Part shown: positions 17,469-64,000 of the stretch, in pieces | Position numbering within the stretch: the stretch's first letter is position 1 | How the letters are laid out: every line of letters starts with the position of its first letter | Assembly: GCA_000004985.1 (NCBI GenBank) | Contig: GG738894.1 | Strand: one strand, 5' to 3' | DNA: 64,000 nucleotides | Source of the DNA: Naegleria gruberi | Taxonomy: Eukaryota | Notes under the pieces: model-generated | Database searches by the model: none | What the model saw: the letters and a program-made list of their open reading frames with translations, nothing else | What the model was told of the DNA's origin: nothing | Translations under genes and position numbers: made by a program

Positions 17469-18320
17469 ATGAGTAAACTTAACAGACAAGATTTTGAAAA
17501 TCATCAATTCATTAATTCGGAGGAAATATTCACTAACAATAATAATAATAATAATATAGAAGAGAAAGTAAAAAAGCATGTAAAACTCGAACAAGAAATA
17601 TTTTCAGATGATATTTGTTTTGAAATAATTTCAATGATTGATGATTCGTGGTTTATTTTAAATAATTGTACTTTAATTTCAAAACAATTCTTTAATGTGA
17701 TCAAGGAACGTTCAAAACTTGTTATTCAATTTAAAAAAAAATTTACAGAGAAACGAGTTGAAATATTAAAGAAAAGTCAATTTATGAATAGTATTGTTAA
17801 TCTTAAATTTTCAACAAATTTGTTTGACTATTTTGAAGAAGCAAAATTTATAAGTGAAATGAAAGAATTAACATCGCTTAATATTAATGGCAATGTAATT
17901 GGTGCAGAAGGAGCAAAATTCATCAGTGGAATGAAACAATTGACATCACTTAATATTTCTTACAATGTAATTGGTGATAAAGGAGCTAAATTGATAAGTG
18001 AAATGAAACAGTTAATATCAATTAATATTTCTTACAATAGAATTTGTGGTGAAGGAGCTAAATTCATAAGTGAAATGAAACAATTGACATCACTTAATAT
18101 TGCTAACAATTCAATTGGCGATACAGGAGCTAAATTCATCAGTGGAATGAAAGAATTAACATCACTTGATATATATAATAATAGAATTGGCAGAGAAGGA
18201 GCAAAATACATTAGTGAAATGAAACAATTGACATCACTTGATATTGGTGGCAATCAAATTGGTGATGAAGAAGTAAAATTGATAAGTGAAATGAAACAAT
18301 TGACATCACTAAGAAAATAA
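17469..18320 (+). CDS. F-box-like plus leucine-rich-repeat (RNI-type) protein
   Basis: N-terminal F-box-like FSDDICFEIISMIDDSWFILNNC. At least eight 24-aa repeats ISEMKQLTSLNISYNVIGDKGAKF (LxxLxLxxNxIGxxGAK). Confidence 0.6.
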   Translation: MSKLNRQDFENHQFINSEEIFTNNNNNNNIEEKVKKHVKLEQEIFSDDICFEIISMIDDSWFILNNCTLISKQFFNVIKERSKLVIQFKKKFTEKRVEILKKSQFMNSIVNLKFSTNLFDYFEEAKFISEMKELTSLNINGNVIGAEGAKFISGMKQLTSLNISYNVIGDKGAKLISEMKQLISINISYNRICGEGAKFISEMKQLTSLNIANNSIGDTGAKFISGMKELTSLDIYNNRIGREGAKYISEMKQLTSLDIGGNQIGDEEVKLISEMKQLTSLRK

Positions 18321-21969: not shown

Positions 21970-22512
21970 TTGACAAGCCTACCACAATTTCTTGATTCTG
22001 AATTCATCAAACTATTAATTAATTATAACATTGACTATCGTATTATTGAGCACATGCCTGAAGTTGTAAAAGTAACACCCATTACATCTGAATTTGTGAA
22101 GAAATGGCCACAAGCTTTTACTCTATACCCAGAATTTTATTCAGACGATGTACAATTCATTACAGATAGTAATGTTATGGCTATTGCATTTGCTCGTGAA
22201 CCAGTGCAACTGGAACACTTGGATTTAGTCGCTCAGGCAGGATTGACAACATTGCAGAAAAATTATACACAAAACTACTCACTGGTAAAAAGAGAGAGTG
22301 GGTAGTCTTTAGATGTGATTTTAATGTGTGCTGGTTCTCCTTTTGGAGGTCATTTGGCTGATCTTATTCCAGAACAAGTCTTGTTGGACAGGGATTTCTT
22401 AGTCAACCTTGTCAGGAGAAATGGCTTTGCTTACCAAATGATTCGAGAAATGACGATGGAAGAGGATGAAGATGAAGAATTAGCTATGGAAGCTTTGAAA
22501 TCTTGGGGCTGA
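21970..22512 (+). CDS. Hypothetical protein. Two adjacent ORFs, possibly one gene.
   Basis: ORFs 21970..22305 and 22315..22512 are separated by 9 nt in different frames, with an acidic C-terminus. Low-complexity support only. Confidence 0.3.
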
Positions 22513-22762
22513 TTTGAATCTTCATTACTATATCAATATCATGATGCTAAAATAATTTACAAGATTTTCAAGGAATTATTGAATCAACGTTTGAAGGCTT
22601 TTTACAGTGAAGATTTCTTTATTCCCTCAAGATATTCTTCACTTGCTTTTAAGGTTTAACATTGAATAGGTTCAATATTTGAGAGGATTTATTTCCTTAA
22701 TCATTATGACTATAGAATAGTCTAAAGTAAATATTGCACTTTGCCACACCAATTTAAAAAAA

Positions 22763-24784
22763 ATGTCGCTATTCCTCACGCACTGTTTCCCTCATGCTAG
22801 CTCATGCACCGATCACTATGAATCCGATTCGGAATATGAATGTCGTGACGATCTATTCGATTTAAACAGATTCACACAACCAATTCACGTCGGATTGGAT
22901 TTAACAATCGAAGGTTCAAGAAAATTAGGACACTACCTATTGATCATCATGTGGAGGTTAATATTAAAAAGTCCCATGTTATTCCGAGTGAGAGATGAAG
23001 CGAAAGAACAAGTCAAATTGTTGGAGAAATTTTGTTGCCAGAGACACGAAGAGTTTGCTAGGGAGGTTTGTTGTTCGAATCATCATTTGTTTGAAGATTC
23101 GAGTGTGGAAGTGTTTGATGATATGCAGGTGTGGGCTTCCATGAGAGAAAGTGAAGAAAATGAGACACGGGAATACGAAGGAGAAAAGAGAATTAAATTA
23201 GATGCTGAATCCCTGTCAAAAGTTTATACACTTTCGAATTATTTTGCTACTATTGTTAAAAAATACATATTTGGAGAGTTGGCGAAACATGGCACTGCAG
23301 AGATTTACAAATTTATCACAAAGCAAAATAAGATTGCACTTACATTTAAAATTGAGGAGCTCAGAGATATGGTATTGAAATATTTCGAATATACTCCTTC
23401 AATGCTTCCATTGGAAGATCAGGATGTTAAATTATATTTTATTGGAATGACAGCCTTACTGGAATATTTGGCAGCTGAAATGATTGAATTGGGTGGAAAT
23501 GCCGCTAGAGATGCCCGTCAGGAATATATTACACCTTCTTGTTTTGAAATAGCCACTTCAGGAGATGCAGAATTGGAAAGGACGGTACTATTTCACATGA
23601 ACCATTTGCCTCTCGTTGATTTCAATTATTTTTATGGAGCCAATCAAACAGTATTACCTCCTATTGATGTGAATGAGAAAGCCAATAGTGGAGAGGAATT
23701 TAATTTTACTCAACTACCAACTGAATTACATAACACCATACTCAAAAATGTTTCTTCGTTGGAAGAACTTTTGGAAATGAGATTGGTTTGCAAACAATGG
23801 AACTATTTCATCATGAATGATAATGATATTTGGAAGAGTTTAATTTGTAACAATACGATTTCAGAAGATTTATTCAGGTTCTGTGATTCAACTTTTACTG
23901 TTGGTGAGTTGGAAACTATTTTGAGTAGAGGAAAAGATCTAAAACCTCTCCATTTTGGCCAACAAGTAATTAATCATTTCTATGAGAAGAATGATTGGAA
24001 GTCCCTATACTTTATTCTCGTACGAAGACATTTGACATTTATACGTGATTTGGATTTGATGAAATCAAGAGAATTTTTCGATGAATATTTCAATTACGAT
24101 TCTTCTGTAGAATCATATGACAACTCGAAAAAGAAACTGCAAATTGGAATTACAAAGGGTGTATTTGCGAATTTCAACTTTACAAAACACCTATCATCAC
24201 GTGTTTCGTCTAAGGTTTACATTCCTAAAGATGCTCTTTCAGAATTTTTGAAATTTGGAAATAATTATTCACTAGTTGGTGTGATTGACTTTTCAAAATT
24301 CTCCTCCTTCATTTCATGTCGTTTGTTCCCAAAAAATGGATTATTATATTGCTTTTATCACAAAATCAATCAAGCAGATTTTCTATTCTTTGAGAATTAT
24401 TCTCTTGAATCTGAACAATTAATTGAATTTGAAATCAAAGACAAAAGCTTTGAATTTCCTCAACCAATTAATCCATACCAAGTCTACCATGAACAAATTA
24501 TTGTCAATCAACCTTCATGTTGTCCACTCTTTTACTTGCAGCAAGCACAAGGTCATCGTTCAGGTTGCAATCTAGCCCCAAGCGTTCTATTTAACAATAA
24601 TGAAGACAAACCTGAAACAATGATTCAATCCTACCTCAGAGAGGATGACGAGGATAATATAGTACTGCTATCAGACACCTTGGAGGAATCAGAAGATACT
24701 TTTTCTATTTACATTTCAAGAGAGGATTTAATCTTAAGAAAGTTTGAGAATGCAAAAATTGAATATGTGAAACCAAACTACTAG
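22763..24784 (+). CDS. Histone H2A-like histone-fold domain plus F-box protein
   Basis: Residues ~215-265 (MTALLEYLAAEMIELGGNAARDARQEYITPSCFEIATSGDAELERTV) align with the H2A alpha2-L2-alpha3 and docking region ([40 protein letters not shown]). An F-box lies downstream (LPTELHNTILKNVSSLEELLEMRLVCKQWNYFIMNDNDIWKSL). Confidence 0.65.
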   Translation: MSLFLTHCFPHASSCTDHYESDSEYECRDDLFDLNRFTQPIHVGLDLTIEGSRKLGHYLLIIMWRLILKSPMLFRVRDEAKEQVKLLEKFCCQRHEEFAREVCCSNHHLFEDSSVEVFDDMQVWASMRESEENETREYEGEKRIKLDAESLSKVYTLSNYFATIVKKYIFGELAKHGTAEIYKFITKQNKIALTFKIEELRDMVLKYFEYTPSMLPLEDQDVKLYFIGMTALLEYLAAEMIELGGNAARDARQEYITPSCFEIATSGDAELERTVLFHMNHLPLVDFNYFYGANQTVLPPIDVNEKANSGEEFNFTQLPTELHNTILKNVSSLEELLEMRLVCKQWNYFIMNDNDIWKSLICNNTISEDLFRFCDSTFTVGELETILSRGKDLKPLHFGQQVINHFYEKNDWKSLYFILVRRHLTFIRDLDLMKSREFFDEYFNYDSSVESYDNSKKKLQIGITKGVFANFNFTKHLSSRVSSKVYIPKDALSEFLKFGNNYSLVGVIDFSKFSSFISCRLFPKNGLLYCFYHKINQADFLFFENYSLESEQLIEFEIKDKSFEFPQPINPYQVYHEQIIVNQPSCCPLFYLQQAQGHRSGCNLAPSVLFNNNEDKPETMIQSYLREDDEDNIVLLSDTLEESEDTFSIYISREDLILRKFENAKIEYVKPNY

Positions 24785-25061
24785 CACGAGCCATCAGCCA
24801 AAATTGTTTAATAAATTAAAAAGACTACAGCACCACAGGTTTCCAAGTTGTCTCCAACCTCAGTACTGATGTGGCTCGACGATGCTTAACTTCTCAAATC
24901 GGACAGGATGAGGTGCATTCATCGTGATATGGCCGTAGCCATTCATTTCCTTAATACAATGAATATAAAGAATATTTAACTAATTGGATCAGAAATTTAT
25001 TCATTTTACATATTAACTCGGGCTATATTGTTGAATCTCTTGTTTCACTCTTTAGAAATAA

Positions 25062-25457
25062 CTACAAATCTTCGTCTTCAAATTGTGGAGGTTTGTGATG
25101 ATCTGGATTAACATTTCCAAACGAAGATGAAGAACTACCTCCTCTATTTCCACTTCCATAACCTCCAAATGGTCCAATGGTAGGATAAACTGGATCAAAT
25201 CGAGAACCTGGTAACATCTGAGGAGGTTTCATATCTCCTCCTCCCATTGAAGAAGCAGAAGGAAAATTCGAACGATCATTGAAAATTGGATTATTTGGTC
25301 CAACTTGATTGCCACCAAATCCACCACTCATTGAGGAAGGAGCATTTCCATGTAAAGGTTGAAAACAAGGCAATGGATTTAAATCTTGATCTCCTACTCT
25401 TCTATTATTATTCATCATCATGTTGTTACTATTATTGTTAAAATTATTGTTATTCAT
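25062..25457 (-). CDS. Small N/G/P-rich low-complexity protein
   Basis: 131 aa with a poly-N N-terminus and a Gly/Pro-rich body (…RFDPVYPTIGPFGGYGSG…NPDHHKPPQFEDEDL). It loosely resembles a PI31-type Pro/Gly tail but lacks an HbYX end. Confidence 0.4.
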   Translation of the reverse strand: MNNNNFNNNSNNMMMNNNRRVGDQDLNPLPCFQPLHGNAPSSMSGGFGGNQVGPNNPIFNDRSNFPSASSMGGGDMKPPQMLPGSRFDPVYPTIGPFGGYGSGNRGGSSSSSFGNVNPDHHKPPQFEDEDL

Positions 25458-25501
25458 GTTGTGTTATTCTTTTTGTGTTGAATTCATTGATTGGCATGAG
25501 A

Positions 25502-25582
25502 TTTTTGTGCTATTTAAAGAATTTTGAAAAAGGAATTAAAGTTATTTGTGTTACATATTACAAAAATAACTTTTTGAACAAC
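25502..25582. promoter_or_regulatory. Copy A of an ~80-bp conserved upstream element, 5' of minus-strand gene 25062..25457
   Basis: tttttgtgctatttaaagaattttgaaaaaggaattaaagtt is identical over 42 nt to 26885-26926. The following ~40 nt (…caaaaataactttttgaa) are about 85% similar. It lies 45-125 bp upstream of the ATG at 25457. Confidence 0.45.
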
Positions 25583-25660
25583 ATTTCTACCCAAGAAACA
25601 GATGATACATATAGTCAAAACATTGAAAGTTGCGTTCAAAATGTTCTTGATAAATAGAAT

Positions 25661-26770
25661 TTATTCAAAATCTATTGAGATATCAGAGAGTTGATTGTTA
25701 ATTATTTTGATCAATAAATTAGATTTGAAACTATTGATATTGTGGAAGCGCTTCATATGTTCATACAAAAGATATCTCAATGCATACAAGGTCAGTAGGC
25801 ATTGGTTTTCATTTCCGTGACTATATCCATACCATGGAGTGAACATTACCTTCTTAGTTTTGTGAATAACCCATGGATATTTCTGCCTTTCACTTACACT
25901 CCTAGCAAGTAAATGCCAATCATTTACATTACTCAAGGTGGTGTCACAAACTCCACAAATGTATAAATCATCCAATTTCAAACAATCCTCAATAGTCTCT
26001 TCCACTTCACCAATTGTTTGAACTCTATTTTCTAATTTGTTCATACACTTATTCACAAATATAGTCAAGCTCTGATTATCCAATTGATTAATATTTTGTA
26101 GCAAGAGTTGTACATAAGTTCCATCTGTATACTCCACATAACCATCATTTGTGTCCTTTCTTCTCACAAAACCAAGTCTCATTGGAACTGATCGTCCTGC
26201 TCCTCTCAAAAACACTACAGACAACTCTCCACTGTTGATTAAATCATTAATCACACCTACAACAACTGAATCAAATCCCGTATAAGTTCCAGAATATAAC
26301 GTGAAGAAAACAATATTATATCCTCTCAGAAAGCTCCTCATCACTTGAGGTTGCAAGCTACAAAAACTGGATTCATTAATCCGATCCACCTTCTTGAATA
26401 TACATTTCTGATCGAGCATGAATCTCGTCCAATGTGATTCAGTGGACTCCTCCGAAGTCTTGAATAATTTTGGATTTTTAACATAATAACACAATCTCTC
26501 TTCAATACATTGCATAAAGTGGGCAGGTTCTGATGTATCTGCTTGAATAATCAAGGCTGATTGTAATTCATCAAATTCCTTTATAGTCAATTCATCCAAA
26601 TTGTCAGTGATTGCAAGTGGAACCAGATCAATGTCCTTCCTATCATGAGGTGTCCCTGCATCTAGATTATTATCAATTGTATCGTAATCATCCATTTTTT
26701 TTGTTGTAATATTTATTCTAAAAATAATTTGGCTCCATGGTAACAATTTGAAAGCAGTTACACGCAACAT
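25661..26770 (-). CDS. Hypothetical protein (369 aa)
   Basis: A long intron-free ORF with good codon periodicity. No family recognised by eye (…GYNIVFFTLYSGTYTGFDSVVVGVINDLINSGELSVVFLRGAGRSVPMRLGF…). Confidence 0.5.
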   Translation of the reverse strand: MLRVTAFKLLPWSQIIFRINITTKKMDDYDTIDNNLDAGTPHDRKDIDLVPLAITDNLDELTIKEFDELQSALIIQADTSEPAHFMQCIEERLCYYVKNPKLFKTSEESTESHWTRFMLDQKCIFKKVDRINESSFCSLQPQVMRSFLRGYNIVFFTLYSGTYTGFDSVVVGVINDLINSGELSVVFLRGAGRSVPMRLGFVRRKDTNDGYVEYTDGTYVQLLLQNINQLDNQSLTIFVNKCMNKLENRVQTIGEVEETIEDCLKLDDLYICGVCDTTLSNVNDWHLLARSVSERQKYPWVIHKTKKVMFTPWYGYSHGNENQCLLTLYALRYLLYEHMKRFHNINSFKSNLLIKIINNQLSDISIDFE

Positions 26771-26884
26771 TTCTTTTCATTTGACAAAGACCAACTGAGA
26801 TGACCTTGAGTAAGGAGTTATTAGAATCCAATGAGGATTAAAGAACTACTAAATTCCTTAGTTGTTTCTCCAATTGGATCTTGG

Positions 26885-26966
26885 TTTTTGTGCTATTTAA
26901 AGAATTTTGAAAAAGGAATTAAAGTTCTTTAGTGTGTGCAAATATTTCAAAAATAACTTTTTAAAG
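26885..26966. promoter_or_regulatory. Copy B of the ~80-bp conserved upstream element, 5' of minus-strand gene 25661..26770
   Basis: Same element as 25502-25582. It lies ~115-195 bp upstream of the ATG at 26770. Confidence 0.45.
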
Positions 26967-27306
26967 AGTGTTGGAAATGCAAAGGAGCAAAATATTAGAA
27001 TCGACAACTGACTAGACAATTTCACGTTGAAATTCAATGAGGTCTGTAAATTATTAATTTTTGAATTAGTACCCCAGTAATATTAATAATAATAATACAA
27101 CATTGTAAAGACAATATCTTAATGAGAGTGTCAAAGGAGAATTTATCCAATCATTTTTCCCTGACACACCAAATAAAACTTATCAGTCAGTAGTCAATTG
27201 TGAGACAAATCTCAGACAACCAAATTGAGAAGAATCGACACTCCCCATGGAACACAACTCTCATACTTACCCCTCACCATTTCGTTTGACATCCATCTGT
27301 AAAAAA

Positions 27307-28454
27307 ATGTTAGGCAGTAAGATTTGTCTATTGTTGCTTGCATGTTGTGTTGTTTCCCTACTTTTGGTCAACTTCCAAACAGTTAATAGTTCAAGACCCA
27401 ATTGTTCTGATCCATTACCTAAAGATTCCAGTCAATTTAGAAGAAATACCTTGCAACATGCTCTTGAGGAAGAATCTCTTCTTCAAGAAGATGACATGGA
27501 CCACTTGAACACCTTGAGTGCTGTCACTTTGAAAGGTGGCAGAGGTGGTGGAAGAGGTGGACGTGGTCGTGGTGGTGGTAGAGGTGGTAGAGGAGAGGAG
27601 GTAGAGGTAGAGGAGGACGTGGTTCAAGAGGAAGTAGAGGATCCAGAGGTGGTAAAGGAAGTAGAGGAAGCAAAGGTGGTTCAAGATCATCTTCTGGAAG
27701 AGGAAGTAGAGGAAGTAGAGGAGGTGGAAGAGGTAGAGGAAGCAGAGGAAGTAGAAGTGGATCAAGATCATCCTCAAGATCTGGAAGAAACAGTGGAAAG
27801 AGTAGAGGTGGAAAAGCTTCTTCGTCATCATCATCTGCTTCTTCTAAGGGAGCAAGAAGATCTGCAGCATCCAAAGCTAAAGCTACCAACAAATCACCAA
27901 CCGATTTGGGAAGAGTTTCGGTTACTGCCAGACGAACCTCCAAAACTAAAACAACTCAACAACAACAACAACAAGAATCCAAGGAAACTAAAAACAATAG
28001 AACCAAATCAGGAGGAGAAGGTTTACATATTCCATTTACAATGGAAGCTCTCAATATCATGTTCAAGGCCAAGAAGAAATTTGACGGATTTTTGGGACCT
28101 CACACTCAAAGACTTCCTCCAATTCCATTCGTTTCTGATAAACAAACATCTTGTGTGGCATGTAGAGTTGATTGCCTTAAAAGATGGAATGGTTTGGATA
28201 GACGTTCCATTTTTAGTAAGTGTAAGAAACAATTTTACTATTATGGATGTGAAAAAATTGCTCCATGTTTGAGAACGAGAGGAAATGGAGCAAATTTAGA
28301 GGAAGTTGAAGGTATGTTAGGTATTTGTTATGATAGAAATGGTTGTGAATTGGACAGACTTGTCGCCACTCAATATGTCAAACTTTATGGAATTGAAAAT
28401 GCGTCGAGAAGAATTGCAGCTGATATCATGTCTGAAAATCAAGATACTCAATAA
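27307..28454 (+). CDS. Secreted RGG/SR-rich protein with a C-terminal Cys-rich domain. A +1 frameshift sits near 27586-27600.
   Basis: Signal peptide MLGSKICLLLLACCVVSLLLVNFQTVNS. Frame 1 runs to …GGRGGGRGGRGRGGGRGGRG and then decays into EEVEVEE… The coherent continuation (…GGRGSRGSRGSRGGKGS…SKGARRSAASKA…CVACRVDCLKRWNG…CEKIAPCL…GICYDRNGCELD…) is in frame 3. That frame is open from ~27586 to the stop at 28454. Confidence 0.5.
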
Positions 28455-28655
28455 ATTAGTTTGAATTGTAGTGAAATAATTGCCAAATATTCAAGATTTA
28501 GCTTATTAGAAACTTTATTCTAAAACGCACTAAACTAAAAGGAATTGCATATTAAATCGCTCAATACGCTCGTCGTTCTACCGTTGGCCCCGTTGTTAAC
28601 TTGGGAAGTAAAGGTCTATTTCCACTCTCGTCAATTTAACATTCTTACAAAAAAA

Positions 28656-29720
28656 ATGCTGAAATATTTAGCTGTCATTTGTCTTGTATTTTTTAGTTGT
28701 CATCTTGTGGCTGCAAAATTGCAAGTTACACCAAATAATGAACGTGGCATCAAGGTAGCAAATGGTCAAACTGCTGGTGAACACGAATTTCCTTTCATTG
28801 TTTCCATTCAAAAACAACTTTCGTCCGGAGCTTTCGAACATCTCTGTACAGGAAGTATCCTATCGAGTACATTTGTATTGACAGCTGCTCACTGTTTAGA
28901 CTCATCTACAACACTTGTTGTTGTTTACGGAACTTATGACAATACATGTTCAGATAATTGTAAATACATCAAAGTCAAAAATCAAATTGCTCATCCTTCC
29001 TATCAGAAAGGAACAGAAAGAAATGACATTGCTGTATTTGAACTTGAAAGTGCATTGCCAATTGATGATTCAACTGTTAGTACAGTTTCTATTGATGCAA
29101 ATTCAATTGCAATTCATGATGAGGAAAGTGATTCTTCTAGATTAGTTTTAATTTCTGGTTGGGGAGCTTTGAATTCTAACTTGGATTATCCTAAAAAGTT
29201 ACAAAAGGCATCTGTTCCAATTGTTAAAATGTCATATTGTAATAATTTGAATTTGGGTGGAGTTGATATTGAACAAATTTGTGCAGGAGCTGGAAATGGT
29301 AAGTTTTTACAATTTTAGAAAGTGAATTTCAATAATTTTCATAGGAAGGGATGCTTGCAGTGGAGACAGTGGTGGTCCTTTATTTAGAAAAATATCTTCC
29401 TCTTCAAAATATACTCAATTTGGTGTTGTAAGTATTGAAATACTTTACAAAAAATTATTGAAATATTGTAAAATATTGTAAAATAGGTTTCGACTGGTTA
29501 TGAAACTTGTGGAGCAACTGTTAGTAGAGGACTCTATTCGAATACCACTTTCTATCTATCATTCATTCAAACATACGTCCCAGGAGTTTCTGTTAATCAA
29601 GATTCGGATACTGTCAATCCAGGAGATATTGGAACTGGTAATACTGGAACAGGTTCTCAAATTGTATATACCTCACTATCATTTATTGTACTTTTATTCA
29701 TAATTTCACTAATTTTCTAA
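28656..29720 (+). CDS. Trypsin-like (S1) serine protease. Three exons (~28656..29298, 29345..29427, 29487..29720).
   Basis: Signal peptide MLKYLAVICLVFFSCHLVAA. TAAHC (His), NDIAVF (Asp). Exon 2 encodes [14 protein letters not shown] (Ser) after GTAAGT…ATAG. Exon 3 encodes STGYETCGATVSRGLYSNTTFYLSFIQTYV after a second GTAAGT…AATAG intron. C-terminal hydrophobic tail (SLSFIVLLFIISLIF). Confidence 0.8.
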
Positions 29721-29753
29721 GTTATTTGAAAAACAAAACACTTTACAAAAAAA

Positions 29754-30916
29754 TTAAAGAGAATTCAAAATTTCTTCAGCAGTTTTTTCCACCTCTTGTC
29801 TATTCAAAGTATTAACAATGTAAACTCCCTTCACTTGTTTATGTGAATCGGCTTTAATAAATCTACTCATGAGAAAATCCTTCACTTGATTGACTTGTTC
29901 TGAGCTTTTCACAAATTCTGGAAAGAGAGAGGAAAAGACAACTTTTTGTCTGTGAATGATTTCTTCCAAAATGTCAAGTTTTGTAAAGATTAGAAAGATT
30001 GGAACAGTGGTTGATGAGATAACGTCCTTGAAACATTTCAAACTCTCATTAGCTCTGTTGAAATTCATTTTCCGATATACATATTCGAATAGAGGTAATA
30101 AACTTACCTATTTTCATTCTGATCTTCATAACAATATTGAAAGCATTCACTTAATGAAACCATGAAAAAGATAGCATCTGGAAGAGGATTTGCACTAATT
30201 ACATGTTTCCATTTCTTTCTCTCATTTCTTTGTCCTCCTGTATCTGTTCTAAATTCGTAAAATATTGAATTACCCAATTAGTTAATAACATACATGGTCA
30301 ATTTGAAATTTTTAAATTCAGTTGATCCACAATTTACAATTCCGACTGTCTTTTTCTGTAATCTTGCCAGATCCTCAATTGTTGGCTCATAATTATTCGA
30401 AAGTAGAATTCTCTCACTATTCTTAAAGAAATATTGATGATTTCCTGCGAGATGAAGGAGAGGATACAGTTCTGGATTGTCAATCACATCACAAACTGCT
30501 GGATTTTTCAATAATTTGATAAAATTCTTGCAATTCTTCAACAACACCTCCAAATGTCTCCTTTCAAAATGACTGTCAACATAATTTTCCACTAGGTGAG
30601 CTAATTGCTTGACAATATTTTCATCATCACCTGTAATATTCCTTCTAACCTGCGCATTTGTTGTAATATTCACCAAATTTTGAAGAACACTATATTGAAT
30701 ATGTTCGGAATGAATTTTCAAATTCTTATCAACAACAACTTGATTGGAAATTAATTGTCGTGCAAATGATGATTTGCCACATTCACCAGTTCCCAGAAAT
30801 ACAAACGACTTGTTGATGAATGAGCACGATGGAACAATTCCAGTAAAGAAGGTGAAGGGAGGAGAGGGCTTGTTCTTCATTTTGTTTTTTTTTGTATAAT
30901 TGTAAGTGGGCGGCAA
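29754..30916 (-). CDS. Divergent heterotrimeric G-protein alpha-subunit-like protein. Three exons (30294..30916, 30108..30248, 29754..30054).
   Basis: P-loop FLGTGECGKSS (compare GAGESGKST). Switch II/G3 TDTGGQRNERKKW after a GTATGT…TTTAG intron. G4 FTKLD and C-terminal NRANESLKCFKDVISSTTVPIFLIFTKLDILEEII (compare NRMHESLKLF…ILFLNKKDLFEEKI) after a GTAAGT…AACAG intron. No N-terminal MGC. Confidence 0.7.
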
Positions 30917-33108: not shown

Positions 33109-34257
33109 ATGAATACAGGCAAGTGGCTCGTCCTCTCCTTGTTGTTTGTAGTTTTGTTGGCATGCGCTTCCTTCGCCTCTGCTCAACAAGCTGAAACACA
33201 AGCTGTCATCAAAACAACAGCAGCTCCAGCTGTCAAACCAACAACAACAGCTGTCAAACCAAAAGTTGTTGCTAAAAAGAAGAAAACTGCCAAGAAATCA
33301 AAGAAGGCTCAAAAGAAGAAGGTAAAGAAAGCCAAGAAGGCCGCTAAGAAGGCAAAGAAGGCTAAAAAATCAAAGAAATCATCAAAGAAGACTTGTGCTA
33401 GAGTTGTCAAGAGATTTAGAAAGGCTTCCGGAAAATTGAGAAAAGCTTTGAAGAAATCCAAAAAGTCTGTAAAGAGACTCAGATCCCGTGTTCAAAAGTT
33501 GAGACTCAGATTGAAGAAGTGTGGAAAGTCTGTCAAGAAAGCTAAGAAGGCTGTCAAGAAGGCCAAAAAAGCTGCCAGAAAGACTAAGAGATCCAAGAAA
33601 TCCAAGAAGGCAAAGAAATCAAAGGCCAGAAAATTGAGAAAATTGAGAAGATGTGCCAAGAAGGCTAAATCCTTGAAGAAGAGAAAGGCCTGTAGAAAGG
33701 CATTGAAGAGAGTTAGAAAGCTCAGAAAGTTGAGAAGATGTGCCAAGAAGGCTAAATCTTTAAAGAAGAGAAAGGCTTGTAGAAAGCTCTTGAGAAGAAT
33801 CAGAAAGCTCAGAAGATTGAGAAGATGTGCCAAGAAGGCCAAGACTTTGAAGAAGAGAAATGCCTGTAAAGCTGCTTTGGCTAAACTCACCAAGAAGGTT
33901 AAGAAGGCCAAGAAGGCTGTCAAGAAGGCCTCTAAGAAATCAAAGAAGTCAAAGAAGACTGCCAAGAAATCAAAGAAGGTTGCCAAGAAAGTTGTTGCCA
34001 AGAAGCTCACTGTTGAACAAAAGAAGGTTGCTGTTGCCGAAGCTATCAAGAAGGCTATCAGAGCTGCTGCTAACAAGGTCAAACAAGCCAAGAAGATTGC
34101 TGCCAAGAAGGTCACTAAAAAGACTGCCAAGAAGCAAACCAAGAAGACTGCTAAGAAGTCCAAGAAGGCTGCCAGAAAGACCAAGAAATCAAAGAAGACC
34201 TCTAAGAAGCAATGGAGAAAGTTGGTTAAGAGATTGACCAAGCTCTACAAGTGCTAA
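33109..34257 (+). CDS. Secreted highly basic Lys/Ala-rich protein with Cys-containing tandem repeats
   Basis: Signal peptide MNTGKWLVLSLLFVVLLACASFASA. About 45% Lys. Three tandem copies of a ~30-aa unit RKLRKLRRCAKKAKSLKKRKACRKALKRV. The overlapping minus-strand ORFs are artefacts of the repeat. Confidence 0.6.
   Translation: MNTGKWLVLSLLFVVLLACASFASAQQAETQAVIKTTAAPAVKPTTTAVKPKVVAKKKKTAKKSKKAQKKKVKKAKKAAKKAKKAKKSKKSSKKTCARVVKRFRKASGKLRKALKKSKKSVKRLRSRVQKLRLRLKKCGKSVKKAKKAVKKAKKAARKTKRSKKSKKAKKSKARKLRKLRRCAKKAKSLKKRKACRKALKRVRKLRKLRRCAKKAKSLKKRKACRKLLRRIRKLRRLRRCAKKAKTLKKRNACKAALAKLTKKVKKAKKAVKKASKKSKKSKKTAKKSKKVAKKVVAKKLTVEQKKVAVAEAIKKAIRAAANKVKQAKKIAAKKVTKKTAKKQTKKTAKKSKKAARKTKKSKKTSKKQWRKLVKRLTKLYKC
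33630..33860 (+). repeat. Three tandem ~90-bp coding repeats inside the K-rich gene
   Basis: aaattgagaagatgtgccaagaaggctaaatc[c/t]ttgaagaagagaaaggc[c/t]tgtagaaag… is repeated three times with few substitutions. Confidence 0.6.
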
Positions 34258-40080: not shown

Positions 40081-40193
40081 TTTTTTTGTAATATTTTCTG
40101 GTATCTAAGTTTGTTATTAATTGTTCAAGTACTTTTCCAGGATAGAGATGGAAATAATATTGTAATAATATTAATCCGTTTAACATGGAATTT

Positions 40194-41343
40194 TTACATA
40201 AATAAGCACTTTTTGGAATTTTGCTTTGGCTTAATCAATTTCTGTTTAAGAGATTCCAAATATTCCACATCAAGTTCAATAATATTCTTTAACAGTTTTA
40301 AACCCAAATCGGTTCCGCTTAGTAATCTCACACAATCTAAGAATATTTCTTCCACATTTATGTTAAACTTGGCACTTGTCACAGAGGTATTTAACAATTC
40401 ATATTGACTAATCTTGTCATTCACAACTTGTTTAGCTTTCTCAGTAATTTCCCTCTTTTCTTCCTTCTCTTCTTCTGTGAAATCATCAACCTTATTCAAT
40501 GCAAAAATTATTGGAATACTTTTTAATTGTTCGATTCCTCTAACTCGAGCCATGAATTCCATATGATATCCTAAAGAGCAATCATCTATTGAACTAGGAT
40601 CTGTCAGAGAGCAAACAACTACAATACAATTGGAATTACAAAGGCATTGCTCTTTAAATAAATTACTTTCATACTCCTCATGTCCATCTACGAGAACTCC
40701 AAAATTTTGTAAATAATTGTTTTACTTACAGAAATCGAAAATATTAAATAAATATTGATCTCCACCAATTTCCACATATTTTCTGTAATTATCATCAATT
40801 GTTGGGGTGTTGTGTTCAAGGAAATTTCCCTGAATGAATTGAATAATTAGCGAACTTTTACCTAATTATTTCGAATAGGTTTAATTCAATAATAAACTCA
40901 CCAACTCCTCCATCTCCAAGGAGAAGAATCTTAATTTCTTCATCATGATATTCATTTTCATTTCTAGTGATGGGAACTGTACTTAAAAATTGTTTCGTAT
41001 AAAGTGTTAGAATAATCTTTCTTCGGAGATTTCCTATTTCCACCATTTGATTTTTAACTTGATCAAATTCTTCTCTGTTTTTCTCTTTAATTCTAACTTG
41101 ACTTTCGAATAATTTCCACCAAATATTGTTGAAATATTCTTGCATTTCACAAGATAATGACTTGTTAATGCTTGTGAATGTCATCAGAAATCGAAGATTT
41201 TGCGAATAATTGATGTGTAAATTATTCGGATCAATGATAAATGAGAGAATACACAAGAGAAGTTCAATTGGAAGAGATGAGAACCGAGTTGTTTTTCGTT
41301 TGGCCATTTTTTTTAATGAAGAATTCAATAGATGAAAATCCAA
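40194..41343 (-). CDS. Ras-family small GTPase with a ~145-aa F-box-like N-terminal extension and a C-terminal CaaX. Three exons (40902..41343, 40730..40861, 40194..40687).
   Basis: P-loop GDGGVG|GKSSLI is split by a GTGAGT…AATTAG intron. Switch I PTIDDNYRK. G3 DFYGHEEY spans a GTAAGT…CGTAG intron. G4 NKVD, and the C-terminus ends …KKCLFM (CaaX). The N-terminus LPIELLLCILSFI…NIWWKL is F-box-like. Confidence 0.7.
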
Positions 41344-56965: not shown

Positions 56966-57129
56966 ATTTACAACCTAGATTAAAAACTAAATTATAAAAC
57001 AAATAAAGCTGAGTAGGGAGCTTTGTGTAAAATAAGAGCCAACGATTGTTATTTACAAAATAATTTATTTTCTTTTACATCTGTTCCTGTATCAGTATTT
57101 ATTTACCTTTTGATTAGTGTTGAATCGAT

Positions 57130-57220
57130 GGTGAGTTGGTCGAGTGGTCTAAGACGACACGTTAAGGTATGATTAATACCGTGTTCCGCAAGGGCGTGGG
57201 TTCAAATCCCACACTCATCA
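57130..57220 (+). tRNA. tRNA-Leu(AAG) with an 11-nt intron (approximate coordinates)
   Basis: Type II tRNA. Acceptor GGTGAGT/ACTCATC with one G-U pair, and discriminator A. D-arm GTC-GAGTGGTCTAA-GAC. Anticodon stem ACACG/CGTGT with loop TTAAGG-[TATGATTAATA]-C, the intron sitting after position 37. Long variable arm. T-arm GTGGG-TTCAAAT-CCCAC. Confidence 0.7.
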
Positions 57221-57422
57221 GTTTTTAATTTAATGATCAAAATAAAATTTTATCTTCATTGCCATCAAAAATCATTTTAGTACTTTGTCAATCTTATTTC
57301 CTCTCACACCATTATTGTAGCGCGGAAGCAAGGTAATCCATCGAAAATCAATGGTGAGGTTGAACACGTGTTCAGATCATCAAACAAATATCAAGAGCTC
57401 GGAAAATTGCGATATAAAAAAA

Positions 57423-60870: not shown

Positions 60871-60920
60871 NNNNNNNNNNNNNNNNNNNNNNNNNNNNNN
60901 NNNNNNNNNNNNNNNNNNNN
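60871..60920. other. Assembly gap (50 N)
   Basis: Run of N. Confidence 1.
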
Positions 60921-61909
60921 CGGATAGAGATGGAAATAATATTGTAATAATATTAATCCGTTTAACATGGAATTTTTACATAAATAAGCACTTTTTGGAA
61001 TTTTGCTTTGGCTTAATCAATTTCTGTTTAAGAGATTCCAAATATTCCACATCAAGTTCAATAATATTCTTTAACAGTTTTAAACCCAAATCGGTTCCGC
61101 TTAGTAATCTCACACAATCTAAGAATATTTCTTCCACATTTATGTTAAACTTGGCACTTGTCACAGAGGTATTTAACAATTCATATTGACTAATCTTGTC
61201 ATTCACAACTTGTTTAGCTTTCTCAGTAATTTCCCTCTTTTCTTCCTTCTCTTCTTCTGTGAAATCATCAACCTTATTCAATGCAAAAATTATTGGAATA
61301 CTTTTTAATTGTTCGATTCCTCTAACTCGAGCCATGAATTCCATATGATATCCTAAAGAGCAATCATCTATTGAACTAGGATCTGTCAGAGAGCAAACAA
61401 CTACAATACAATTGGAATTACAAAGGCATTGCTCTTTAAATAAATTACTTTCATACTCCTCATGTCCATCTACGAGAACTCCAAAATTTTGTAAATAATT
61501 GTTTTACTTACAGAAATCGAAAATATTAAATAAATATTGATCTCCACCAATTTCCACATATTTTCTGTAATTATCATCAATTGTTGGGGTGTTGTGTTCA
61601 AGGAAATTTCCCTGAATGAATTGAATAATTAGCGAACTTTTACCTAATTATTTCGAATAGGTTTAATTCAATAATAAACTCACCAACTCCTCCATCTCCA
61701 AGGAGAAGAATCTTAATTTCTTCATCATGATATTCATTTTCATTTCTAGTGATGGGAACTGTACTTAAAAATTGTTTCGTATAAAGTGTTAGAATAATCT
61801 TTCTTCGGAGATTTCCTATTTCCACCATTTGATTTTTAACTTGATCAAATTCTTCTCTGTTTTTCTCTTTAATTCTAACTTGACTTTCGAATAATTTCCA
61901 CCAAATATT
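60921..61909. repeat. Exact duplicate of 40139..41127 (offset +20782), bounded by N gaps
   Basis: Every block I compared is identical to the original, including the exon 2 region. It carries exons 3 and 2 and part of exon 1 of the F-box-Ras gene. The first base after the gap differs (cgg versus agg). Confidence 0.8.
60976..61909 (-). CDS. Partial second copy of the F-box-Ras-like GTPase (exons ~60976..61469, 61512..61643, 61684..gap)
   Basis: Identical sequence to 40194..41127. Truncated by the gap at 61910. Confidence 0.6.
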
Positions 61910-64000
61910 NNNNNNNNNNNNNNNNNNNNNNNNNNNNNNNNNNNNNNNNNNNNNNNNNNNNNNNNNNNNNNNNNNNNNNNNNNNNNNNNNNNNNNNNNNN
62001 NNNNNNNNNNNNNNNNNNNNNNNNNNNNNNNNNNNNNNNNNNNNNNNNNNNNNNNNNNNNNNNNNNNNNNNNNNNNNNNNNNNNNNNNNNNNNNNNNNNN
62101 NNNNNNNNNNNNNNNNNNNNNNNNNNNNNNNNNNNNNNNNNNNNNNNNNNNNNNNNNNNNNNNNNNNNNNNNNNNNNNNNNNNNNNNNNNNNNNNNNNNN
62201 NNNNNNNNNNNNNNNNNNNNNNNNNNNNNNNNNNNNNNNNNNNNNNNNNNNNNNNNNNNNNNNNNNNNNNNNNNNNNNNNNNNNNNNNNNNNNNNNNNNN
62301 NNNNNNNNNNNNNNNNNNNNNNNNNNNNNNNNNNNNNNNNNNNNNNNNNNNNNNNNNNNNNNNNNNNNNNNNNNNNNNNNNNNNNNNNNNNNNNNNNNNN
62401 NNNNNNNNNNNNNNNNNNNNNNNNNNNNNNNNNNNNNNNNNNNNNNNNNNNNNNNNNNNNNNNNNNNNNNNNNNNNNNNNNNNNNNNNNNNNNNNNNNNN
62501 NNNNNNNNNNNNNNNNNNNNNNNNNNNNNNNNNNNNNNNNNNNNNNNNNNNNNNNNNNNNNNNNNNNNNNNNNNNNNNNNNNNNNNNNNNNNNNNNNNNN
62601 NNNNNNNNNNNNNNNNNNNNNNNNNNNNNNNNNNNNNNNNNNNNNNNNNNNNNNNNNNNNNNNNNNNNNNNNNNNNNNNNNNNNNNNNNNNNNNNNNNNN
62701 NNNNNNNNNNNNNNNNNNNNNNNNNNNNNNNNNNNNNNNNNNNNNNNNNNNNNNNNNNNNNNNNNNNNNNNNNNNNNNNNNNNNNNNNNNNNNNNNNNNN
62801 NNNNNNNNNNNNNNNNNNNNNNNNNNNNNNNNNNNNNNNNNNNNNNNNNNNNNNNNNNNNNNNNNNNNNNNNNNNNNNNNNNNNNNNNNNNNNNNNNNNN
62901 NNNNNNNNNNNNNNNNNNNNNNNNNNNNNNNNNNNNNNNNNNNNNNNNNNNNNNNNNNNNNNNNNNNNNNNNNNNNNNNNNNNNNNNNNNNNNNNNNNNN
63001 NNNNNNNNNNNNNNNNNNNNNNNNNNNNNNNNNNNNNNNNNNNNNNNNNNNNNNNNNNNNNNNNNNNNNNNNNNNNNNNNNNNNNNNNNNNNNNNNNNNN
63101 NNNNNNNNNNNNNNNNNNNNNNNNNNNNNNNNNNNNNNNNNNNNNNNNNNNNNNNNNNNNNNNNNNNNNNNNNNNNNNNNNNNNNNNNNNNNNNNNNNNN
63201 NNNNNNNNNNNNNNNNNNNNNNNNNNNNNNNNNNNNNNNNNNNNNNNNNNNNNNNNNNNNNNNNNNNNNNNNNNNNNNNNNNNNNNNNNNNNNNNNNNNN
63301 NNNNNNNNNNNNNNNNNNNNNNNNNNNNNNNNNNNNNNNNNNNNNNNNNNNNNNNNNNNNNNNNNNNNNNNNNNNNNNNNNNNNNNNNNNNNNNNNNNNN
63401 NNNNNNNNNNNNNNNNNNNNNNNNNNNNNNNNNNNNNNNNNNNNNNNNNNNNNNNNNNNNNNNNNNNNNNNNNNNNNNNNNNNNNNNNNNNNNNNNNNNN
63501 NNNNNNNNNNNNNNNNNNNNNNNNNNNNNNNNNNNNNNNNNNNNNNNNNNNNNNNNNNNNNNNNNNNNNNNNNNNNNNNNNNNNNNNNNNNNNNNNNNNN
63601 NNNNNNNNNNNNNNNNNNNNNNNNNNNNNNNNNNNNNNNNNNNNNNNNNNNNNNNNNNNNNNNNNNNNNNNNNNNNNNNNNNNNNNNNNNNNNNNNNNNN
63701 NNNNNNNNNNNNNNNNNNNNNNNNNNNNNNNNNNNNNNNNNNNNNNNNNNNNNNNNNNNNNNNNNNNNNNNNNNNNNNNNNNNNNNNNNNNNNNNNNNNN
63801 NNNNNNNNNNNNNNNNNNNNNNNNNNNNNNNNNNNNNNNNNNNNNNNNNNNNNNNNNNNNNNNNNNNNNNNNNNNNNNNNNNNNNNNNNNNNNNNNNNNN
63901 NNNNNNNNNNNNNNNNNNNNNNNNNNNNNNNNNNNNNNNNNNNNNNNNNNNNNNNNNNNNNNNNNNNNNNNNNNNNNNNNNNNNNNNNNNNNNNNNNNNN
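61910..64000. other. Assembly gap (2091 N)
   Basis: Run of N to the window end. Confidence 1.

What the first reader, a model, noticed from the sequence alone, without database searches (positions are those of the whole stretch)
25470..26990. Conserved ~80-bp element repeated in the 5' flanks of two tandem minus-strand genes
tttttgtgctatttaaagaattttgaaaaaggaattaaagtt is a 42-nt perfect match, followed by about 40 nt of imperfect match ending caaaaataacttttt. It occurs at 25502-25582 and at 26885-26966. Each copy lies ~50-200 bp upstream of the start codons at 25457 and 26770. The copies are direct repeats, 1.38 kb apart. This fits a shared promoter module or a duplicated gene-plus-promoter unit. 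The spurious ORF 25475..25657 runs through copy A.
Basis: seen in the sequence. Interest (0 to 1): 0.5.

Follow-up and report, generated by a model that had tools for sequence, protein, structure and literature searches.

The report
Duplicated TATA-box promoter segment, Naegleria
An ~80-base stretch containing a TATA box occurs twice, 1.4 kb apart, in front of two unrelated neighbouring genes of the amoeba Naegleria gruberi; it is most likely a young local duplication of promoter DNA and is fairly ordinary.

Summary
The repeat is real: 46 nt (42 perfect) + an unalignable 7/11-nt linker + 24 nt (22 identical), at 25502-25578 and 26885-26965, direct, 1383 bp apart. It is the only non-coding exact repeat of 20 nt or more in the window. 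The organism is Naegleria gruberi NEG-M, not a dictyostelid. The copies bracket gene B (start 26695, not 26770), a member of a family seen only in Naegleria and Willaertia. Copy A lies 44 nt upstream of gene A, a PI31 C-terminal-domain protein. A and B are unrelated, so this is not a gene-plus-promoter duplication. Each copy carries TTTAAATA/TATTTAAA. The same motif lies 23-32 nt upstream of two 5S rRNA genes whose upstream regions are otherwise unrelated, and it is about 2-fold enriched in non-ORF DNA. Outside a 17-nt mutated patch the copies are 59/60 identical, so the perfect 42-mer reflects youth and does not show constraint. No conserved RNA fold, Rfam hit, terminal inverted repeat or target-site duplication was found. 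There were no hits in JGI metagenomes, IMG/VR or prokaryotic genomes. Best reading: a young local duplication of a TATA-containing promoter-proximal segment, serving as core promoter for gene A and possibly B. A genome-wide copy count could not be made. Low interest.

The parts
25502..25547 (.). Copy A, block 1 (46 nt; the first 42 are identical to copy B). Contains the TATA-like octamer.
   Evidence: (family D4)
25548..25554 (.). Copy A linker GTGTTAC. It cannot be aligned with copy B's linker and forms the centre of a 12-of-13-bp hairpin present only in copy A.
   Evidence: z = -3.1
25555..25578 (.). Copy A, block 2 (24 nt, 2 mismatches to copy B). Contains a run of five T (25572-25576) near its + strand end.
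   Evidence: (family D7)
26885..26930 (.). Copy B, block 1 (46 nt).
   Evidence: Identical in the 98%-identical ENA metagenome contig L004.
26931..26941 (.). Copy B linker AGTGTGTGCAA. It is hypervariable: 3 of the 6 differing alignment columns between NEG-M and the ENA strain in 26742-27246 fall at 26937-26942.
26942..26965 (.). Copy B, block 2 (24 nt).
25511..25518 (-). TATA-like octamer (TTTAAATA on the minus strand, TATTTAAA on the plus strand), 54 nt upstream of the ATG of gene A. Predicted minus-strand transcription start is near 25488.
   Evidence: Spacing calibrated on the 5S rRNA genes. Enrichment in non-ORF DNA.
26894..26901 (-). The same TATA-like octamer in copy B, 199 nt upstream of the ATG of gene B (26695) and 353 nt upstream of gene C (27247, + strand).
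25490..25494 (.). ATTGG (CCAAT on the minus strand), 7 nt from copy A. The same pentamer sits at the same spacing next to copy B (26873-26877). This may be an extension of the repeat or chance.
26873..26877 (.). ATTGG, part of CCAATTGG, 7 nt from copy B.
25062..25457 (-). Gene A: a 131-aa protein consisting of a PI31 proteasome-regulator C-terminal domain only.
   Evidence: PF08577, E = 1.4e-14. Its paralogue P0007 is annotated with the same start.
25661..26695 (-). Gene B: a 344-aa member of a family seen only in Naegleria and Willaertia, bracketed by the two copies.
   Evidence: AF2 model pLDDT 85.5. Weak ThuA-like / class-I glutamine-amidotransferase fold hits.
24822..24940 (-). 5S rRNA gene. 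It is context only, but it calibrates the TATA box: TTTATA lies at -30 to -25, and a T5 terminator follows its 3' end.

Best explanation
The two copies come from one young, local duplication of about 81 bp (perhaps 89-93 bp) of promoter-proximal DNA in Naegleria gruberi. The duplicated piece carries a TATA box (TTCTTTAAATAG on the gene strand) plus about 60 bp of upstream sequence. In copy A the TATA box would bind TBP 54 nt before the ATG of the PI31-C gene. That would set a transcription start near 25488 and a leader of about 30 nt. Copy A fills 40% of the 203-bp gap between genes B and A, and holds the only match to the TATA-like octamers scanned in that gap. Copy B lies in the same orientation 199 nt before the ATG of gene B. 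It may serve as B's promoter, or it may simply be what remains of the original A-C intergenic region. Because the copies exactly bracket gene B, the simplest history is as follows. Genes A and C were once divergent neighbours sharing one element. A 1.3-kb segment carrying gene B was then placed between them, and the element was duplicated at the junctions. Shown: the repeat itself, its uniqueness in the window, the gene context, the TATA motif and its calibration. Inferred: promoter activity, the start sites and the insertion history.
For: The repeat is real and unique in the window. Both copies have the same orientation upstream of minus-strand ORFs. The TATTTAAA/TTTAAATA octamer is enriched in non-ORF DNA: 10 observed against 4.4 expected, with 7 of 500 Markov-1 simulations reaching the observed count. 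That count includes the two copies under study, which share one origin. Other intergenic copies of the octamer lie about 90-260 nt upstream of ATGs. Two 5S rRNA genes with non-homologous upstream DNA both carry this kind of motif 23-32 nt before their known 5' ends: TTTATA at -30 to -25 in the window, and TATTTAAATA at -32 to -23 in L005. This supports the motif being a working TATA box in this genome, with normal spacing. Copy B's two blocks are unchanged in a second strain. The neighbourhood is a mosaic of recent segmental duplications. The F-box + 5S block 22261-24956 has a paralogue on another scaffold, with its breakpoint 16 nt beyond the 5S gene. A B'-A' gene pair lies elsewhere on the same scaffold. 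Gene B belongs to a lineage-specific multigene family.
Against: There are no transcription-start or expression data. Between copy B's TATA box and the ATG of gene B lie three upstream ATGs and a 72-nt net length polymorphism (74 nt in L004 replace 2 nt in the window). That makes a long, unconstrained leader, so copy B may not be B's core promoter. TATA boxes are nearly palindromic, so the motif does not fix the strand. Outside the 17-nt patch the copies are 59/60 identical, so nothing requires selection. A and B show no functional link that would call for co-regulation. An 81-bp junction duplication is far longer than ordinary target-site duplications.
Confidence: 0.5

Rival explanations
1. 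It is a neutral footprint only. The 81 bp were copied as a by-product of the rearrangement or repair event that placed gene B here (a long junction duplication or a templated repair patch). At least one copy has no regulatory role, and the perfect 42-mer simply reflects a young age.
For: Outside the 25544-25560 patch the copies are 59/60 identical, similar to the paralogue and strain divergence of 97-98%. The differences cluster in one patch, and in copy A they all increase hairpin complementarity. That looks like a single complex or template-switch mutation rather than graded constraint. The same patch in copy B changed again between strains. The copies exactly bracket one gene from an expanding lineage-specific family. 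Nearby segmental-duplication breakpoints are documented.
Against: Copy A supplies the only match to the TATA-like octamers scanned in the 203-bp gap before gene A, at a workable distance. So at least that copy very probably acts as a promoter, and the two readings overlap rather than exclude each other.
Confidence: 0.3
2. It belongs to a dispersed repeat family of the Naegleria genome (MITE, SINE, solo LTR or similar), and two members happen to lie here.
For: The full genome could not be searched. A paralogous B'-A' locus exists and probably holds further copies.
Against: There are only two copies in 62 kb, both within 1.4 kb. Apart from the orthologous copy B in L004, none occurs in about 12 kb of contigs fetched from ENA metagenomes, mostly N. 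gruberi-like. The element has no terminal inverted repeats and no flanking target-site duplication: the flanks are GAGA|...|CAAC and TTGG|...|GAGT. I saw no tRNA-like boxes or poly(A) tail by eye. A 25-mer from the element gave 0 exact hits in JGI metagenomes or prokaryotic genomes, and a 35-mer gave 0 in IMG/VR.
Confidence: 0.08
3. Each copy is a tiny plus-strand transcription unit: TATA box, start about 30 nt downstream, an AT-rich RNA of 30-40 nt, and a T5 terminator. It would be read by RNA polymerase III, like the neighbouring 5S gene, which also has a TATA box at -30 and a T5 terminator.
For: The layout fits. TATTTAAA lies at 25511 and 26894, homology ends 2 nt after a T5 run, and an inverted CCAAT lies upstream. 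The 5S gene shows that TATA at -30 and T5 are both used in this genome. Copy A's central part forms a hairpin.
Against: The hairpin is not kept in copy B (z = +0.5 and +0.6). Full-length folds differ between the copies. No Rfam family matches above noise; the best hit is mir-239 at 22.9 bits against a threshold of 49. The supposed promoter is better preserved than the supposed RNA. An RNA of 30-40 nt is shorter than known Pol III products, and I saw no internal control boxes or PSE-like element by eye.
Confidence: 0.06
4. Copy A lies inside an intron of a single B+A gene, as in the public fused gene model (409 aa), so it is not upstream of any gene.
For: The JGI/NCBI model EFC40217 (P0006) joins B residues 1-287 to A residues 11-131, through GTATGG (around 25838) and AG (around 25424).
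Against: The supposed intron removes B's last 57 residues (288-344), which hold many of the columns invariant across B, its paralogue and P0002 (WYGYSHGN...QLSD). B has its own stop codon, and its end matches the ends of its homologues. At the paralogous locus the same two genes are annotated separately.
Confidence: 0.05

Closest known systems
TATA-box core promoters of RNA polymerase II genes, and promoter duplication or capture during local gene rearrangement
   Same: A TATA-like octamer lies at the gene-proximal end of a short upstream segment, in the same orientation before two ORFs. The motif is enriched in intergenic DNA. Its spacing to a known start, about 25-32 nt, could be verified on the 5S genes of the same organism.
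   Different: No start site has been mapped. The two driven genes are unrelated. The distance to the ATG differs four-fold (54 versus 199 nt). Nothing shows that the 60 bp upstream of the TATA box binds any factor.
Target-site or junction duplications flanking inserted DNA (transposon TSDs, long L1-type TSDs, duplications at segmental-duplication junctions)
   Same: Two direct repeats exactly bracket a discrete 1.3-kb segment holding one intronless gene of an expanding family.
   Different: The repeat is 81 bp, against the usual 2-20 bp. There is no transposase, no terminal repeats and no poly(A) remnant, and no empty site was available for comparison.
Upstream TATA elements of Pol III genes (5S rRNA here; U6-type genes elsewhere)
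   Same: The same motif is involved, and the plus-strand reading ends in a T5 run.
   Different: No recognisable RNA gene follows. I saw no PSE or internal control region by eye, and no conserved structure was found.
Dictyostelid promoter or upstream elements
   Same: AT-rich intergenic DNA with a TATA box and T-runs.
   Different: Wrong organism. The window is Naegleria gruberi (Heterolobosea), so that comparison does not apply.

Membership tests
TATA-box core promoter | TATA-like motif present | tested here: met
   TATTTAAA/TTTAAATA at 25511-25518 and 26894-26901.
TATA-box core promoter | The motif is used as a TATA box in this genome, with about 25-32 nt spacing to a start site | tested here: met
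   Two 5S genes with non-homologous upstream DNA carry TTTATA (-30 to -25) and TATTTAAATA (-32 to -23). The octamer is enriched in non-ORF DNA, 10 against 4.4 expected, though that count includes the two copies themselves.
TATA-box core promoter | A transcription start 25-35 nt downstream of the motif for genes A and B | not testable with these tools
   No RNA data were available. N. gruberi contigs could not be retrieved.
Duplicated gene-plus-promoter unit | The genes downstream of the two copies are paralogues | tested here: not met
   BLASTP of A against B gives E = 0.41 at best. A is PI31_Prot_C. B has no Pfam domain and a different fold.
Duplicated gene-plus-promoter unit | Homology extends beyond the element into the transcribed region | tested here: not met
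   Alignment of 240-nt flanks shows identity collapsing at both edges.
Dispersed repeat (MITE / SINE / solo LTR) | Many copies at unrelated sites | tested here: inconclusive
   Two copies in 62 kb, both local. Among the five fetched loci only the orthologous copy B in L004 matches. There were 0 hits in JGI metagenomes, IMG/VR and GTDB genomes.
Dispersed repeat (MITE / SINE / solo LTR) | Terminal inverted repeats and a target-site duplication around each copy | tested here: not met
   No inverted-repeat pair sits at the element ends. The flanking bases differ.
Structured small RNA gene | Match to a described RNA family | tested here: not met
   Rfam with the E-value threshold on 24700-27300 gives only sub-threshold miRNA noise at the element.
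Structured small RNA gene | Secondary structure shared by the copies | tested here: not met
   RNA folds differ between the copies. The hairpin scores z = -3.1 in copy A but +0.5 and +0.6 in copy B and in L004.
Junction / target-site duplication of an inserted segment | Direct repeats exactly bracket a discrete segment | tested here: met
   The copies flank 25583-26884, which holds only gene B with its 78-nt 3' flank and 189-nt 5' flank.
Junction / target-site duplication of an inserted segment | An empty site (one copy, no gene B) in a related genome | not testable with these tools
   The only related contig covering this side (L004) starts inside gene B and already has B, copy B and C. No contig from an outgroup covered the locus.
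Dictyostelid promoter element | The host is a dictyostelid | tested here: not met
   The window's proteins are identical to N. gruberi NEG-M entries EFC40149 and EFC40217.

The most novel reading that the evidence does not exclude
Each copy is a miniature plus-strand transcription unit (TATA box, start about 30 nt downstream, T5 terminator). It would produce a 30-40-nt AT-rich RNA whose centre mutates unusually fast, which would be a previously unknown class of very short Pol III-type transcripts in Naegleria. A less exotic version is an 81-bp portable promoter cassette, duplicated when gene B was inserted, that now drives both genes.
Probability: 0.06. Interest if true: 0.55.

Novelty: new member of a known kind. 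Interest (0 to 1): 0.2.

Why it matters
Little is known about what makes a Naegleria promoter. A 2026 review of transgenic approaches in pathogenic free-living amoebae states that it is unclear which nucleic acid elements are needed for transgene expression (PMC13315211). A compact 80-bp TATA-containing segment found in front of two genes is a cheap candidate minimal promoter to test in N. gruberi transfection. The in-genome calibration, the same motif 23-32 nt before two independent 5S genes, is a small but usable fact. The locus also illustrates promoter duplication alongside insertion of a lineage-specific gene. Beyond that it is an ordinary local duplication.

Tried and rejected
(1) Retrieving N. 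gruberi DNA outside the window failed. The look-up of encoding contigs found nothing for the window's proteins or their NCBI counterparts. Only ENA metagenome contigs were obtained (L001-L005).

(2) The element is not found in public collections. A 25-mer gave no exact match in JGI metagenomes or GTDB genomes, and a 35-mer gave none in IMG/VR. A protein-based scan of JGI metagenomes for gene B relatives also found nothing.

(3) I tested a 'PI31 gene fission with promoter copy' idea, in which gene B would be the missing N-terminal FP domain of PI31. It is rejected. There is no Pfam or PDB sequence hit, and a confident AF2 model (pLDDT 85.5) weakly resembles ThuA-like / class-I glutamine amidotransferase folds instead. 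The first AF2 run, with 3 sequences, was unusable (pLDDT 42).

(4) The structured-RNA reading is rejected on the Rfam and fold results.

(5) The bacterial-type promoter/terminator scan was uninformative, as expected for a eukaryote.

(6) Literature searches for Naegleria promoter motifs, small RNAs or these gene IDs gave nothing specific.

(7) The 3' flank of the 45%-identical gene B homologue contig L001 shows no trace of the element, but noncoding conservation is not expected at that distance.

Full report
**Observation.** The repeat is as described.
- The 42-mer occurs exactly twice, at 25502-25543 and 26885-26926, both on the + strand. No shuffle of the window produced a match, even with 3 mismatches allowed.
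- Homology continues for 4 nt with 1 mismatch, then breaks in a linker of 7 versus 11 nt that cannot be aligned. It resumes for 24 nt with 2 mismatches (25555-25578 versus 26942-26965) and then stops.
- An ATTGG pentamer lies exactly 7 nt before both copies, so the original unit may have been about 90 nt.
- An exhaustive scan for exact repeats of 20 nt or more found no other non-coding pair in the window. The others are a 988-bp perfect duplicate at the scaffold end and tandem repeats inside two genes.

**Organism and genes.** The window is not dictyostelid.
- The ORF 22763-24784 is identical to N. gruberi NEG-M protein EFC40149. The annotated protein EFC40217 is built from the two genes next to the repeat. 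The window is the last ~62 kb of a 499,907-bp scaffold.
- Gene A (25062-25457, minus strand) is a 131-aa protein consisting of a PI31 proteasome-regulator C-terminal domain.
- Gene B (25661-26695, minus strand) has no Pfam domain. It belongs to a small family of about 30 representatives; the ten whose sources I looked up are from Naegleria, Willaertia or unnamed metagenome and Logan assemblies.
- With a 28-sequence alignment, AlphaFold gave a confident model of B (pLDDT 85.5). Its best PDB matches are weak, to ThuA-like / class-I glutamine amidotransferase folds. It is not the FP domain that PI31 normally carries.
- A and B are unrelated.
- B starts at 26695, not 26770. The public models start at MDDYD, and in a 98%-identical strain the upstream ATG runs into two stop codons.
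- The public fused B+A model would place copy A in an intron. That 'intron' deletes B's last 57 residues (288-344), which hold many of the family's invariant columns, and the paralogous locus is annotated as two genes. I treat the fusion as a modelling artefact.

**Anatomy relative to genes.**
- Copy A fills 81 of the 203 bp between B's stop codon and A's ATG. Its gene-proximal end is 44 nt from that ATG.
- Copy B lies in the 551-bp divergent gap between B (minus strand) and C (27247, plus strand), 189 nt from B's ATG.
- The two copies exactly bracket gene B with its short flanks.

**The TATA box.**
- Each copy holds TATTTAAA/TTTAAATA (25511, 26894).
- In the window this octamer occurs 17 times, 11 of them outside ORFs. 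Several lie 54-260 nt before an ATG.
- In non-ORF DNA it is about 2.3-fold over a Markov-1 expectation: 10 against 4.4, with 7 of 500 simulations as high. That count includes the two copies under study.
- The 5S rRNA gene at 24822-24940 has TTTATA at -30 to -25. The ENA contig L005 carries the paralogous F-box + 5S block. Its homology to the window ends 16 nt beyond the 5S 5' end, yet its unrelated upstream DNA has TATTTAAATA at -32 to -23.
- Two independent upstream regions therefore place this motif at the canonical distance from a known RNA 5' end. That is good evidence that it works as a TATA box in Naegleria.
- Applied to the element on the gene strand, it predicts starts near 25488 for gene A (leader about 30 nt) and near 26871 for gene B (leader about 175 nt, containing three upstream ATGs).

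**Conserved or merely young?**
- The differences between the copies are confined to 25544-25560. Outside that patch 59 of 60 positions agree. A test of the 42-mer against the rest of the alignable columns gives only p = 0.06.
- In copy A the patch differences all raise the complementarity of a 12-of-13-bp hairpin (z = -3.1). Copy B has no significant hairpin (z = +0.5), and neither does copy B in the second strain. This looks like one complex mutation at a quasi-palindrome, not a conserved structure.
- The ENA contig L004 is 98% identical to window 26441-30607. Both of its copy-B blocks match the window's, apart from the first base of block 2. Three of the six differing columns in 26742-27246 fall at 26937-26942. 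So the centre is a mutational hot spot.
- The identity level of the rest matches the local paralogue and strain divergence (97-98%). Selection is not needed to explain the perfect 42-mer.

**Other readings tested.**
- RNA gene: there is no Rfam family above noise, no shared fold, and the putative promoter would be better preserved than the putative RNA.
- Mobile element: there are no terminal inverted repeats, no flanking target-site duplication and no further copies in the DNA I could reach. A 25-mer or 35-mer from the element had no exact match in JGI metagenomes, IMG/VR or GTDB genomes.
- Gene-plus-promoter duplication: rejected.
- PI31 gene fission: rejected.

**History.**
- The neighbourhood is a patchwork of recent segmental duplications. 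The F-box + 5S block (22261-24956) has a 97% protein-identity paralogue on another scaffold. A B'-A' pair (EFC40135 and EFC40136, B' 97% identical to B) lies elsewhere on the same scaffold.
- If the segment between the two copies is removed, A and C become divergent neighbours about 400 bp apart, with the TATA box 54 nt before A.
- The simplest story is that gene B was placed into that gap and the element was duplicated at the junctions. That would leave a copy of A's promoter segment in front of B.
- This is inference. No empty site could be examined.

**Verdict.** The finding is a real, statistically unambiguous, two-copy local repeat.
- Most likely (about 0.5) it is a young duplication of a TATA-containing promoter-proximal segment. 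Copy A would act as the core promoter of the PI31-C gene. Copy B is possibly, but not demonstrably, used by gene B.
- A purely neutral footprint (about 0.3) overlaps with this reading.
- A dispersed family (0.08), a mini RNA gene (0.06) and an intronic location (0.05) are less likely.
- The element is undescribed but of a known kind. Interest is low, apart from its use as a candidate minimal promoter in an organism where promoter requirements are still unknown (PMC13315211).

Noticed in passing
window 24822-24940 (-), and L005 around 2650-2800: A chromosomal 5S rRNA gene lies 122 nt after the stop codon of gene A, with a T5 run right after its 3' end. This gene and its paralogue in L005 both have a TATA-like motif 23-32 nt upstream, although their upstream sequences are otherwise unrelated.
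   Followed up: partly
window 22261-24956 versus L005 107-2784: The F-box gene plus the 5S gene form a 2.7-kb segmental-duplication block, with a paralogue (P0003) on a 394,700-bp scaffold. Homology ends 16 nt beyond the 5S 5' end, and in L005 a different plus-strand gene follows.
   Followed up: partly
window 60922-61909 versus 40140-41127; N runs 60871-60920 and 61910-64000: The last 988 bp of the scaffold, after a 50-N gap, are 100% identical to 40140-41127. This is probably an assembly artefact at the scaffold end. The window is padded with N after 61909.
   Followed up: no
window 27247-28454 (+), around 27594: Gene C (arginine/glycine/serine-rich, with a cysteine-rich C-terminus) is split over two reading frames in NEG-M, but is one intact 402-aa ORF (P0005) in the 98%-identical ENA contig L004. 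No NEG-M protein for it was found. This is either a frameshift error in the repeat region or a pseudogene.
   Followed up: partly
window 26739/26742; L004 300-373: In gene B's 5' leader, 74 nt in the ENA strain replace 2 nt in NEG-M (a net gain of 72 nt). The extra piece contains GTGATGA...TGATGA...CTGA motifs that loosely resemble box C/D elements. It has no other copy in the window.
   Followed up: partly
window 25424-25838 (-): The public gene model EFC40217 (409 aa) fuses gene B to gene A through a predicted 414-nt intron. That intron removes B's last 57 residues (288-344), which hold many of the family's invariant columns, so the model is probably wrong.
   Followed up: yes
outside the window, same scaffold (EFC40135 / EFC40136): A second, adjacent B'-A' gene pair (B' 97% identical to B) exists on the same 499,907-bp scaffold. 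Judging by UniProt accession order it lies roughly 25 genes away and may be inverted. Its DNA could not be fetched.
   Followed up: partly
window 25661-26695 (-): Gene B belongs to an uncharacterised multigene family seen only in Naegleria gruberi, N. fowleri, N. lovaniensis, Willaertia magna and unnamed environmental assemblies. Its predicted fold weakly resembles ThuA-like / class-I glutamine amidotransferases.
   Followed up: partly
L003 2038-2730: A 74%-identical F-box orthologue from the same metagenome (ERZ929261) is followed by a different plus-strand gene. Synteny downstream of the F-box gene is therefore not conserved in that more distant Naegleria.
   Followed up: partly
window 57129-57221 (+): A tRNA gene for which ARAGORN reports an undetermined anticodon ('tRNA-???'). 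At 93 nt it probably contains an intron. Rfam also calls it a tRNA.
   Followed up: no
window 17834-18310 and 33628-33877: Tandem repeats inside two ORFs (spacings in multiples of 72 nt, and about 87 nt, ~80-85% identity).
   Followed up: no
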